The notes below the pieces were generated by a model. That model was not told the DNA's origin. It was given only the letters and a program-made list of their open reading frames with translations, and did not search any database. The position numbers and the translations under genes are program-made. A stretch of 64,000 bases of DNA from Asterias amurensis (Eukaryota): the NCBI RefSeq assembly GCF_032118995.1, contig NC_092655.1, forward strand, positions 14,525,223 through 14,589,222, in the 5' to 3' direction. This document shows positions 30,428 through 30,896 of this stretch, piece by piece (the stretch's first letter is position 1; each line of letters begins with the position of its first letter).

Positions 30428-30801
30428 CTTTCCTGTGCTAGGTTTGTGCAGTGATGGGGCGAAATTTGTTTTGAAAAGCACACACCAAAATTACCATATT
30501 CAATGTTGTTGTTCACACCAGAAAATGATGTACAGTATGCTGCATGTATTTTGACTCTCTAGGTTCGTGCAGTTATGGAGTTAAATTGGTTTTAAAAAGC
30601 ATAAAACTAAATAATATTATTCTCATTATTAATATTCGCACCTGAAAAATGATGTATGCTTTAAATGTATTTTGACTTTCTAGGTTGGTGCAGTGATGGG
30701 GCAAAAATGGTTTGAAAATCACTCACTCAAAATTATTGTATTCATTATTATTATTCGCACCAGACAACATCATGTATGCTGAATATATTTTGACTGTCTA
30801 G
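30428..30801 (+). repeat. Tandem array (3 extra units, ~120-130 bp each) duplicating the exon 13 acceptor region and its first ~17 exonic nt
   Basis: Units start at about 30436, 30558 and 30679, each reading ctaggtt.gtgcagtgatgggg.aaa..ggttt.gaaaa.ca...attattcgcacc.gaaaa.gatgtatgctg.atgtattttgact.t. The fourth unit is the genuine tgactgtctag|gttcgagcagtgatgggtcctgac exon 13 junction at 30801/30802. Confidence 0.8.
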
Positions 30802-30896
30802 GTTCGAGCAGTGATGGGTCCTGACTCTTATCTTCTGACTGCGGATGAACAACTCTGGGAAAAAGATCTGCCTCCTTTAGTCGTGAAAATTCTGCA
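30802..30896 (+). CDS. MVP: MVP exon 13
   Basis: [31 protein letters not shown] against MVP [30 protein letters not shown]. Acceptor gtctag, donor GTGAGT at 30897. Confidence 0.92.

What the first reader, a model, noticed from the sequence alone, without database searches (positions are those of the whole stretch)
30428..30896. Tandem triplication of the exon 13 3' splice site and first exonic nucleotides in MVP intron 12
Immediately upstream of exon 13 (acceptor at 30801/30802) lie three extra ~120-130 bp units. Each ends with ...attttgact.tctag|gtt.gtgcagtgatgggg, a copy of the real acceptor plus the first 17 nt of the exon (gttcgagcagtgatgggt). Use of the nearest decoy acceptor (30681) would insert exactly 120 nt, but that insert contains an in-frame stop. 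Together with the intron 22 array, this is the second case in the same gene of a ~120-bp-period tandem duplication that straddles an exon boundary. That points to a locus- or lineage-specific duplication mechanism. An M1 MITE ends exactly where the array begins (30420).
Basis: seen in the sequence. Interest (0 to 1): 0.65.

Follow-up and report, generated by a model that had tools for sequence, protein, structure and literature searches.

The report
Repeated decoy splice acceptors in MVP intron
An old, decayed tandem duplication in an intron of an animal major vault protein gene has left three extra copies of a splice acceptor plus the first 18-20 bases of the next exon; this is a known kind of mutational relic and nothing shows that it has a function.

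Summary
The window carries a major vault protein (MVP) gene on the + strand. Just upstream of the exon at 30802-30896 lie three head-to-tail units (30442-30562, 30563-30683, 30684-30801). Each starts with a copy of the exon's first 18-20 nt and ends in a CTAG acceptor. A fourth, partial copy supplies the first decoy AG at 30440-30441.

- Spacing is 121, 121 and 118 nt, not 120. The nearest decoy would add 118 nt, so it shifts the frame as well as adding a stop. All three decoys give premature stops.
- The first decoy lacks the 'attttgact' motif.
- The adjacent MITE is an independent TTAA-flanked insertion (30079-30416).

The last copy is the authentic acceptor. Its intron position (K|V, phase 0) is shared with a brachiopod, a snail, three teleosts and a lizard.

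The units differ by 25-34% (K2P), so the array is old and not an assembly artefact. The unit occurs nowhere else in the window, matches no RNA family and has no stable fold.

The second 121-bp array (41331-44600, 27 tandem donors) is real but unrelated in sequence. A shared duplication mechanism is not supported.

Best reading: a tolerated relic with decoy acceptors, the 3' mirror of the human F7 intron 7 minisatellite. No transcript data were available. Interest is low to moderate.

The parts
29852..29912 (+). It encodes (R)QAIPLDDLEGIYVRNLKTGK, ends in phase 0, and has donor AAG|gtaata.
29913..30801 (+). The intron (889 nt) that holds the MITE and the array. Its position (between K and V, phase 0) is shared with Lingula, Bulinus, Clupea, Caranx, Goodea and Phrynosoma.
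30075..30420 (+). One copy of a dispersed MITE of about 340-390 bp. The element itself is 30079-30416. Its TTAA target-site duplications lie at 30075-30078 and 30417-20. The terminal inverted repeat is AGGCAGTGGACACTATTGGTAATT; the left arm here is degenerate and has an internal deletion. At least 13 copies occur in the window.
   Evidence: blastn of the intron against the window; alignment of 13 copies with flanks; TSD and TIR check
30421..30441 (+). Pyrimidine-rich tract and CTAG of decoy acceptor 1 (AG at 30440-30441). Only the last few bases are clearly homologous to the other units. This is the left edge of the array.
30442..30562 (+). Unit 1 (121 nt). It holds an exon-start copy (GTTTGTGCAGTGATGGGG), an AT-rich spacer and decoy acceptor 2 (AG at 30561-30562). 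In-frame stop at 30472-30474.
30563..30683 (+). Unit 2 (121 nt). It holds an exon-start copy (GTTCGTGCAGTTATGGAG), a spacer and decoy acceptor 3 (AG at 30682-30683). In-frame stop at 30593-30595.
30684..30801 (+). Unit 3 (118 nt). It holds an exon-start copy (GTTGGTGCAGTGATGGGG), a spacer and the authentic acceptor (AG at 30800-30801). In-frame stop at 30780-30782.
30802..30896 (+). Its donor gtgagt starts at 30897. The first 18-20 nt (30802-30821) are the part copied in the units.
41331..44600 (+). Context only. This is the second boundary-straddling array in the same gene. The last ~50 nt of an exon (…[15 protein letters not shown]), the donor CAG|gtatac and ~72 nt of intron are repeated so that 27 donors stand in tandem (spacing 121 x20, then 123, 121, 125 x4; 96% matches). 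The first donor (41380/41381) is the one contiguous with the exon. The unit is unrelated in sequence to array 1.

Best explanation
This is a relic of tandem duplication of a ~121-bp segment that straddled the 3' end of an ancient MVP intron. The segment held about 100 nt of intron, including the polypyrimidine tract and AG, plus the first 18-20 nt of the exon.

Any tandem duplication across an acceptor leaves just one productive arrangement. Only the last copy is still joined to the rest of the exon. The earlier copies become intronic decoys.

The array now holds four copies of CTAG|GTTnGnGCAGTnATGGnG and three copies of the ~97-nt remainder. The copies have since diverged by 25-34%. A TTAA-targeting MITE later landed 21 nt upstream of the first decoy's AG.

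- **Shown:** the anatomy, the age, the authenticity of the last acceptor, and the premature stop produced by every decoy.
- **Inferred:**
  - The spliceosome chooses the last acceptor because only it is followed by real exon sequence and a donor 95 nt downstream (exon definition).
  - Any use of a decoy gives a transcript with a premature stop, which nonsense-mediated decay removes.
  - The array is neutral or slightly deleterious and has no function of its own.
For: **Gene and exons**
- tblastn maps MVP exons along 17212-47631. The junction …[16 protein letters not shown]… aligns to human …[15 protein letters not shown]… with no room for an insert at the junction.
- Pfam Vault and MVP_shoulder domains are recorded for all homologues.

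**Array**
- TRF gives period 121. Repeat families have spacing 121/121/118.
- The unit profile hits only the three units, E 1e-27 to 1e-34.

**Decoys are unproductive**
- They would insert 360, 239 or 118 nt, with in-frame stops at codon 11, 11 or 33.

**The authentic acceptor sits at an ancestral position**
- The same K|V phase-0 intron is present in Lingula, Bulinus, Clupea, Caranx, Goodea and Phrynosoma.

**Direction of copying**
- The exon copy differs from the decoy consensus GTTCGTGCAGTGATGGGG only at two synonymous sites (CGT to CGA, GGG to GGT).
- The decoys carry non-synonymous changes (R to C, R to G, G to E). This is read directly.

**Age**
- K2P distance between units is 0.25-0.34.
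- MITE copies are 81-88% identical to one another, apart from one 71% outlier.

**No alternative identity**
- There are no other copies of the unit or spacer in 64 kb.
- There is no Rfam match inside the array.
- Unit folds are no more stable than shuffles, z from -1.1 to +2.5.

**Precedent**
- The human F7 intron 7 37-bp minisatellite spans the exon 7 donor. Its identical pseudo-donors are functional but stay silent (PMC1557585).
Against: - No transcript, population or close-relative data could be obtained. Non-use of the decoys and NMD of any products are therefore untested.
- On the intron side the decoys look no weaker than the real site: 11-12 of 17 pyrimidines against 10 of 17, and the same TTGAC…CTAG. 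The proposed basis for choosing the last site rests only on general knowledge of exon definition.
- All three decoys still have CTAG|GTT intact after 25-34% divergence. The acceptor module may be somewhat better conserved than the spacer (p = 0.02 in one partition, 0.085 in another). That could hint at constraint or gene conversion.
- The array has 3.2 units, not a whole number. A simple duplication history therefore needs an extra deletion or a more complex first event.
Confidence: 0.75

Rival explanations
1. Rival account of the origin: decoy 1 is the ancestral acceptor. A ~97-nt piece of DNA entered the exon about 20 nt from its start, together with a ~24-nt duplication of the target (CTAG plus the first 20 exon bases). 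This could have been a long target-site duplication, or a duplication with filler from break repair. The downstream copy of CTAG then took over as the acceptor, so the insert was absorbed into the intron. The 121-nt block (insert plus duplicate) was later amplified to three copies.
For: - The array is [24 nt] + 3 x [97 + 24 nt]: four boundary copies but only three spacers.
- Upstream of decoy 1's CTAG, homology to the other units drops to 9-10 of 20.
- With the MITE removed in silico, the upstream intron shows no unit homology.
- Decoy 1 has its own, different pyrimidine tract, 11 of 17.
Against: - No source for the 97-nt insert exists in the window.
- The insert has no poly(A), poly(T) or terminal repeats of a mobile element.
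- Four full units followed by a deletion explains the same layout with ordinary events.
- A tract with 11 of 17 pyrimidines is not unusual in this AT-rich intron.
Confidence: 0.2
2. The decoy acceptors are functional. They are kept by selection as regulated unproductive (NMD-coupled) 3' splice sites that tune MVP output. Alternatively they act as successive recursive-type sites (AG|GTTnGT) that are spliced stepwise without leaving an insert.
For: - CTAG|GTT is intact in all three decoys despite K2P of 0.25-0.34 between units.
- The 40-nt boundary segment has more invariant columns than the spacer, 30/40 against 45/85, p = 0.02.
- Joining the upstream exon to a decoy regenerates AAG|GTT(T/C/G)GT. 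This matches the 5' splice-site consensus at +1, +2, +5 and +6, whereas the real junction AAG|GTTCGA lacks the +6 match.
Against: - The conservation contrast is not robust: p = 0.085 with a 46-nt module and gap-free columns. The spacer is slippage-prone ATT-rich DNA.
- GTTnGT is a poor donor, with T at +3 and no A at +4.
- From general knowledge, recursive splicing is known for very long introns, not for 121-nt steps.
- The similar features in Bulinus and Clupea are not shared by Caranx, Goodea, Phrynosoma or Lingula, so nothing is conserved across lineages.
Confidence: 0.07
3. One reading: both ~121-bp arrays in this gene come from one locus- or lineage-specific duplication mechanism that favours ~121-bp units across exon boundaries.
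For: - There are two arrays with TRF period 121 in one gene, and both straddle an exon boundary.
- No other acceptor or donor among the 20 exons tested has such a copy.
- By coincidence, the Bulinus array at the orthologous acceptor has a higher-order period of 122.
Against: - The units are unrelated in sequence: 78/500 and 132/500 shuffles score at least as well.
- Their ages differ sharply, 66-79% against 96% identity.
- They lie on opposite sides of their exons.
- No MITE or shared motif sits at the edges of array 2.
- The other arrays in the window have periods of 27, 53 and 54-55 and their multiples.
- My estimate is about 0.24 for the chance that a random 121-nt segment straddles one of ~54 boundaries in ~27 kb, so two out of two is about 0.06.
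Confidence: 0.08
4. The repeat is a satellite carried or generated by the adjacent MITE or another mobile element, and its resemblance to the exon start is secondary.
For: - The MITE and its TTAA end at 30420, within about 20 nt of the left edge of the array.
- By my estimate the chance that one of ~26 MITE ends in 64 kb falls that close is roughly 1-2%.
Against: - The MITE has intact TTAA duplications on both sides, so it is a clean insertion.
- None of the 12 other copies in the window is followed by the 121-nt unit.
- The unit occurs nowhere else.
- The exon-start sequence encodes VRAVMG. This peptide, and much of its nucleotide sequence, is shared with fish and lizard MVP (GTGCGTGCAGTGATTGG in Caranx), so the exon is the source and not the copy.
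Confidence: 0.03
5. Assembly artefact: reads were mis-joined or over-expanded, creating a false repeat.
For: None for this array. Copy number in the 96%-identical array 2 could be mis-estimated by an assembler.
Against: The units differ at 21-27% of aligned sites and by several indels. An assembler does not create or confuse copies that different.
Confidence: 0.01

Closest known systems
[quoted passage not shown] 2006, PMC1557585)
   Same: In both, a tandem array has one unit spanning an authentic exon-intron boundary, so the authentic splice site stands beside a row of near-identical pseudo-sites inside the intron. Only the copy contiguous with the exon is productive. Array 2 of this gene (27 tandem donors, 41331-44600) is a direct counterpart. 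Array 1 is the mirror image at a 3' splice site.
   Different: - Array 1 involves acceptors rather than donors.
- Its unit is 121 nt rather than 37, and it has 3 decoys.
- Its copies are strongly diverged (66-79% identity), where the F7 pseudo-sites are described as identical in sequence to the authentic donor.
- Silence of the pseudo-sites was shown experimentally for F7 and is untested here.
- Polymorphism in copy number is unknown here.
Tandem duplication of coding sequence with a proto-splice site as a source of new or moved introns (Rogers model; Hellsten et al. 2011, PMC3265369; potato RdRp, PMC4974935; Drosophila near intron pairs, PMC2891723)
   Same: Both involve a short tandem duplication with splice signals, after which one copy of exon-derived sequence ends up inside an intron.
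   Different: No intron was gained or moved here. The intron position is ancient and unchanged. The duplication only lengthened an existing intron by about 360 nt.
Disease-type small duplications of an exon-intron junction (for example the FGG exon 8-intron 8 junction duplication, PMC9052919)
   Same: Both duplicate a junction and so create a second copy of a splice site.
   Different: Those are recent single duplications that disrupt expression. This one is old, has several copies and is evidently tolerated.
Tandem alternative acceptors and tandem exon duplication that produce protein isoforms (general knowledge)
   Same: Several acceptors stand in a row upstream of one exon.
   Different: None of the alternatives keeps an open frame, and only 18-20 nt of the exon are copied. 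No isoform diversity can result.

Membership tests
Minisatellite or tandem array spanning an exon-intron boundary with pseudo splice sites (F7 IVS7 type) | Head-to-tail repeated units | tested here: met
   TRF period 121; spacing 121/121/118; nhmmer E 1e-27 to 1e-34 for three units
Minisatellite or tandem array spanning an exon-intron boundary with pseudo splice sites (F7 IVS7 type) | One unit spans the authentic boundary, and the other units each carry a copy of the splice-site consensus | tested here: met
   CTAG|GTT is present at 30441/2, 30562/3, 30683/4 and at the authentic 30801/2. The authentic site is confirmed by protein alignment and by the conserved intron position.
Minisatellite or tandem array spanning an exon-intron boundary with pseudo splice sites (F7 IVS7 type) | Pseudo-sites are competent but silent in vivo | not testable with these tools
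   No transcripts of this species were found. The intron-side signals of the decoys are as good as those of the real site.
Minisatellite or tandem array spanning an exon-intron boundary with pseudo splice sites (F7 IVS7 type) | Copy number varies between individuals (VNTR) | not testable with these tools
   Only one haplotype is available. No other contig of the species was found.
Alternative tandem acceptors giving protein isoforms | Alternative acceptors keep the reading frame open | tested here: not met
   Inserts of 360, 239 and 118 nt all bring in-frame stops, and two of them also shift the frame.
Tandem exon duplication (mutually exclusive or cassette exons) | The whole exon is duplicated, with both splice sites | tested here: not met
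   Only the first 18-20 nt of the 95-nt exon are repeated. The rest of each unit is AT-rich non-coding spacer.
Intron gain or sliding by tandem duplication | The intron lies at a novel, lineage-specific position | tested here: not met
   The same K|V phase-0 position occurs in Lingula, Bulinus, Clupea, Caranx, Goodea and Phrynosoma.
Satellite carried by a transposable element | The unit is found with other copies of the element or dispersed in the genome | tested here: not met
   No other copy in 64 kb. Twelve other MITE copies lack it. Only this window was testable.
Recursive splice site (ratchet point) | A 3' splice site directly followed by a good 5' splice-site consensus (AG|GTRAGT) | tested here: not met
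   The decoys read AG|GTTTGT, AG|GTTCGT and AG|GTTGGT. They have T at +3 and no A at +4.
Structured RNA gene within the repeat | A match to a known RNA family, or a fold more stable than shuffles | tested here: not met
   No Rfam hit inside 30421-30801, even at E up to 1. Fold z-scores range from -1.1 to +2.5 on both strands.

The most novel reading that the evidence does not exclude
The three decoy 3' splice-site modules are not inert. Under this reading they are kept intact by selection or by gene conversion with the real acceptor. They would be used either as NMD-coupled unproductive acceptors that set MVP output, or as stepwise sites that regenerate a weak donor (AAG|GTTnGT). Together with the 27 tandem donors further downstream, the gene would then be a natural case of splice-site arrays with a regulatory role.
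Probability: 0.07. Interest if true: 0.55.

Novelty: new member of a known kind. Interest (0 to 1): 0.27.

Why it matters
As it stands, this is a clean, old example of how a tandem duplication across an acceptor is tolerated. The last copy stays productive and the earlier copies become intronic decoys that would trigger premature stops.

Its main value is as a natural test case for 3' splice-site choice. Three decoys have intron-side signals as good as the real site, yet only the real site has exon context. In the same gene, a mirror-image array carries 27 near-identical donors.

With RNA-seq from this species, one locus could show whether the rule found for the F7 minisatellite also holds for acceptors in an invertebrate-type gene. 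That rule is that the site adjoining the exon wins and the pseudo-sites stay silent. The locus could also show how much unproductive splicing such arrays cost.

For annotation, it is a warning. Gene predictors could pick a decoy and truncate MVP.

Tried and rejected
1. **Same-species or close-relative protein or transcript.**
   - The search for homologous proteins gave at most ~57% identity, and all listed hits were under 525 aa.
   - The exhaustive representative search gave a best of 51-58%. The named best hits were the sponge Corticium, Mytilus and Sparganum.
   - The back-translated scan of metagenome contigs found nothing.
   - The species stays unidentified, and there is no transcript or allele evidence.
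2. **Histone stem-loops as a route to an intronless gene for an exact look-up.** No histone ORF lies next to either hit. No ORF of 130 aa or more is usable.
3. **Extension of the array upstream of the MITE.** After removing the MITE and one TTAA in silico, local alignment to each unit is no better than shuffles.
4. **Homology between array 1 and array 2 units.** None.
5. **Homology between the window array and the Bulinus array at the orthologous acceptor.** None; 273/300 shuffles score at least as well.
6. **This acceptor as a cross-species hotspot for duplication.** Upstream copies were found in Bulinus and Clupea but not in Lingula, Caranx, Goodea or Phrynosoma. That is 2 of 6, against 4 of 51 other MVP acceptors, all four in Clupea. 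My Fisher estimate is p about 0.1, so I rejected this as unsupported.
7. **A naive tiling control for local repeats.** It was uninformative, because microsatellites and array 2 dominate the background.
8. **Stronger conservation of the acceptor module than of the spacer.** The result depends on the partition: p = 0.02 against 0.085. Inconclusive.
9. **A hidden RNA gene or stable structure in the units.** None.
10. **Branch-point or pyrimidine-tract differences that would explain the choice of the real site.** None found.
11. **One look-up failed.** The Lemmus protein is not on record.
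Full report
**1. What the region is**

The window carries a major vault protein (MVP) gene on the + strand. A 301-residue protein assembled from the window's exons finds hundreds of proteins with Vault and MVP_shoulder Pfam domains.

The exon before the finding is 29852-29912. It encodes …RQAIPLDDLEGIYVRNLKTGK and has donor AAG|gtaata. The exon of the finding is 30802-30896. It encodes [31 protein letters not shown], and its donor gtgagt starts at 30897. 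The intron between them is 889 nt (29913-30801).

**2. Check of the observation**

Four AG|GTT sites are present. The exon-like sequence starts at 30442, 30563, 30684 and 30802.
- TRF reports a 121-nt period.
- The repeat finder reports three-copy families at spacings of 121/121 and 121/118.
- An nhmmer profile of the unit recovers exactly the three units, with E from 1e-27 to 1e-34. Nothing else in 64 kb scores better than E = 0.07.
- Among 20 MVP acceptors in the window, only this one has an upstream copy of itself (z = 14; the others stay below z = 4).

Several details need correction:
- The spacing is 121, 121 and 118 nt.
- The nearest decoy would add 118 nt, not 120, so it shifts the frame and brings a TGA at 30780-30782.
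- Decoys 1 and 2 would add 360 and 239 nt, with stops at codon 11.
- Decoy 1 lacks the 'attttgact' motif. Upstream of its CTAG the identity to the other copies is only 9-10 of 20.

**3. Anatomy**

The array is best described as four copies of a short boundary segment (CTAG plus the first 18-20 exon bases) alternating with three copies of a ~97-nt remainder. The remainder consists of an AT-rich spacer and the ~16-nt pyrimidine-rich tract that ends in TTGACTnT. That makes about 3.2 units rather than a whole number.

Units differ at 21-27% of aligned sites (K2P 0.25-0.34) and by several small indels. This rules out an assembly artefact and shows that the array is old.

The real exon differs from the decoy consensus (GTTCGTGCAGTGATGGGG) only at two synonymous positions. 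The decoys carry codon-changing differences (read). This is what you expect if the exon copy is under protein-level selection and the others are drifting.

**4. Which acceptor is authentic**

Only the last one gives an open frame. The junction K|V aligns to human MVP with no gap at the junction.

I fetched MVP loci of other animals through exact-protein look-ups. The same phase-0 intron, between …GK and VR…, is present in:
- Lingula anatina (L002)
- Bulinus truncatus (L001)
- Clupea harengus (L004)
- Caranx melampygus (L007)
- Goodea atripinnis (L008)
- Phrynosoma platyrhinos (L009)

A rotifer (L005) and an unnamed, apparently intron-less JGI contig (L006) have no intron there. The intron position is therefore ancient, and 30801/30802 is its authentic 3' end.

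**5. The neighbouring MITE**

The stretch 30114-30420 belongs to a dispersed element with at least 13 copies in the window. Eleven of the other copies are 81-88% identical to it and one is 71%.

Aligning the copies with their flanks shows terminal inverted repeats (AGGCAGTGGACACTATTGGTAATT) and TTAA on both sides in most copies. In this intron the element is 30079-30416, with TTAA at 30075-30078 and 30417-30420. It is thus a clean, independent insertion 21 nt upstream of decoy 1's AG.

After removing it in silico, the upstream intron shows no homology to the units. None of the other MITE copies is followed by the unit. MITE copies are more alike than the array units are, so the insertion probably came after the array formed. 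That last step is an inference that assumes similar neutral rates.

The closeness of a MITE end to the array edge is a mild coincidence, roughly 1-2% by my estimate. I cannot explain it.

**6. What it is not**

- It is not an RNA gene. No Rfam match lies inside the array even at E up to 1. The only hit is a weak palindrome in the MITE. Unit folds are no more stable than shuffles.
- It is not a dispersed repeat.
- It is not a source of isoforms, because every decoy gives a stop.
- It is not a duplicated exon, because only 18-20 of 95 nt are copied.
- It is not an intron gain, because the position is ancient (section 4).

**7. How it most likely works**

*Shown:*
- The decoys have intron-side signals at least as good as the real site. 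Pyrimidines at -20 to -4 number 11, 12 and 11 of 17, against 10 of 17 for the real site.
- The same TTGAC lies at -9 in decoys 2 and 3 and the real site.
- No CTRAY branch-point match exists at any of the four sites.

*Inferred from general knowledge of exon definition and splice-site competition:*
- The last acceptor wins because only it is followed by genuine exon sequence and a donor 95 nt away.
- Occasional use of a decoy yields a transcript with a premature stop, which nonsense-mediated decay would remove.

I commit to 'tolerated mutational relic with mostly silent decoys' at about 0.75.

The closest documented case is the human F7 intron 7 minisatellite. [quoted passage not shown] The present array is the mirror image at an acceptor.

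**8. Origin**

Two histories fit the 3.2-unit layout.
- (a) Repeated tandem duplication of a ~121-nt segment spanning the acceptor, followed by loss of most of the first unit.
- (b) A ~97-nt insertion about 20 nt into the exon, accompanied by a ~24-nt duplication that included CTAG. This allowed the downstream copy to take over as acceptor, and the 121-nt block was then amplified.

I cannot separate these without related genomes. No source for the 97-nt piece exists in the window.

**9. The second array and the 'common mechanism' idea**

The array at 41334-44582 is real: period 121, 26.7 copies, 96% matches. It repeats the last ~50 nt of an exon (…[15 protein letters not shown]), the donor CAG|gtatac and ~72 nt of intron, so that 27 donors stand in tandem. 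Among 20 exon ends it is the only one with a downstream copy.

Several points speak against a shared mechanism:
- Its unit is unrelated in sequence to array 1.
- It is far younger or more homogenised.
- It lies on the other side of an exon.
- Exons here come about every 1.1 kb, so a random 121-nt segment straddles a boundary about one time in four (my estimate).
- The identical period is striking but post hoc, and it cannot be tested in 64 kb.

I rate a shared mechanism at about 0.08.

**10. Orthologous introns**

Two other species unexpectedly show something similar at the same acceptor.
- In Bulinus, a 40-nt minisatellite (5.9 copies, with a higher-order period of 122) runs right up to the acceptor. 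Each unit ends …acattactcag|gt(t), against the real …acatttctcag|GTTC.
- In Clupea, a single imperfect copy (CAG|GGCCGTGTTGTGATTGG) lies 40 nt upstream of the real CAG|GTGCGCGCTGTGATTGG (z = 6.7).

Neither is similar in sequence to the window's array. Lingula, Caranx, Goodea and Phrynosoma have nothing of the kind.

Leaving out the window, 2 of 6 species have such a copy. Among other MVP acceptors the figure is 4 of 51, all four being perfect exon-start duplications in the microsatellite-rich Clupea locus. By my Fisher estimate p is about 0.1. I read these as independent, lineage-specific events, not as a conserved feature or a proven hotspot.

**11. Constraint on the decoys**

CTAG|GTT is intact in all decoys. 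One partition shows the 40-nt boundary segment better conserved than the spacer: 30/40 against 45/85 invariant columns, p = 0.02. A 46-nt module compared with gap-free spacer columns gives p = 0.085.

With three sequences and a slippage-prone ATT-rich spacer, this is inconclusive. It keeps alive, at about 0.07, the reading that the decoys are maintained and used.

**12. Limits**

The species is unidentified. The best protein identities are 51-58%, to a sponge, a mussel, a tapeworm, a hemichordate and a brachiopod. No transcript, allele or close relative could be reached. Every statement about splicing outcome is therefore an inference.

**13. Verdict**

This is a new example of a known kind of feature: a tandem array spanning an exon-intron boundary that leaves intronic pseudo splice sites. 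Its modest interest lies mainly in its use as a natural model for 3' splice-site choice, alongside the 27-donor array in the same gene.

Noticed in passing
window 41331-44600: A 121-bp array with 27 near-identical tandem copies of an exon end plus its donor (GCTCAG|GTAT). Spacing is 121 x20, then 123, 121 and 125 x4. It makes up most of that intron. Each unit also reads …cgtgag|GCAAGCTGCAG…CAG|gtat, so it could in principle form a 49-nt pseudo-exon. The last ~6 units form a distinct subfamily with a 125-nt period.
   Followed up: partly
L001 (Bulinus truncatus JAGDYQ010000025.1) 8382-8626: The orthologous MVP-like intron ends in a 40-nt minisatellite (5.9 copies, 85% matches, higher-order period 122). 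Each unit ends in …ttactcag|gt, so five decoy AGs sit upstream of the real acceptor at 8622/8623. It has no sequence similarity to the window's array.
   Followed up: yes
L004 (Clupea harengus LR535879.1) 10370-11010; also 44-400 and 2302-2528: Almost the whole orthologous intron is (AC)n: 252 copies at 10370-10872. An imperfect copy of the acceptor plus exon start lies 40 nt upstream of the real one. Two other MVP exon starts in this locus have 100%-identical tandem copies flanked by CA/TG microsatellites (offsets 97-143 nt). These could be real partial-exon duplications or assembly problems.
   Followed up: partly
window, e.g. 1929-2225, 9420-9708, 12425-12736, 15401-15708, 18429-18738, 23304-23586, 29353-29666, 30079-30416, 34465-34774, 39898-40211, 47888-48195, 58471-58760, 62342-62651: A TTAA-flanked MITE family of ~340-390 bp with 24-nt terminal inverted repeats (AGGCAGTGGACACTATTGGTAATT). 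At least 13 copies lie in 64 kb, about 7% of the window, and many are inside MVP introns. A central palindrome (30212-30260 in the intron copy) gives a weak, sub-threshold mir-3036 match.
   Followed up: partly
window 3061-3105 (-) and 38410-38455 (-): Two Rfam histone 3' stem-loop matches just above the gathering score, with no histone ORF nearby. The second lies inside an MVP intron. Nearby ORFs on opposite strands share an 'ACLKRV' motif (3315-3620 on the - strand, 39152-39376 on the + strand), so both may belong to one repeated element.
   Followed up: no
window 51331-57339: About 6 kb of a 54-55-bp satellite (consensus CAAATTTAGGCCAAAAATTGAAAAAATCACAAGGGGTAAGTCCAGCATTTTTAT) with higher-order periods of 108-111, 162-166 and 217. 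It lies downstream of MVP.
   Followed up: no
window 594-682 and 59342-59417: A 27-bp repeat of 3.3 copies with a tRNA-like T-arm motif (GGGACTCGAACCC), possibly from a tRNA-derived SINE. There is also one tRNA match (38.8 bits) at 59342-59417.
   Followed up: no
Homologous-protein output: All 120 listed MVP homologues are shorter than 525 aa, although full-length MVPs (~850 aa) exist and were returned by the representative search. The word-indexed search seems to miss or exclude long proteins, so 'no close relative' from that tool alone is weak evidence.
   Followed up: partly
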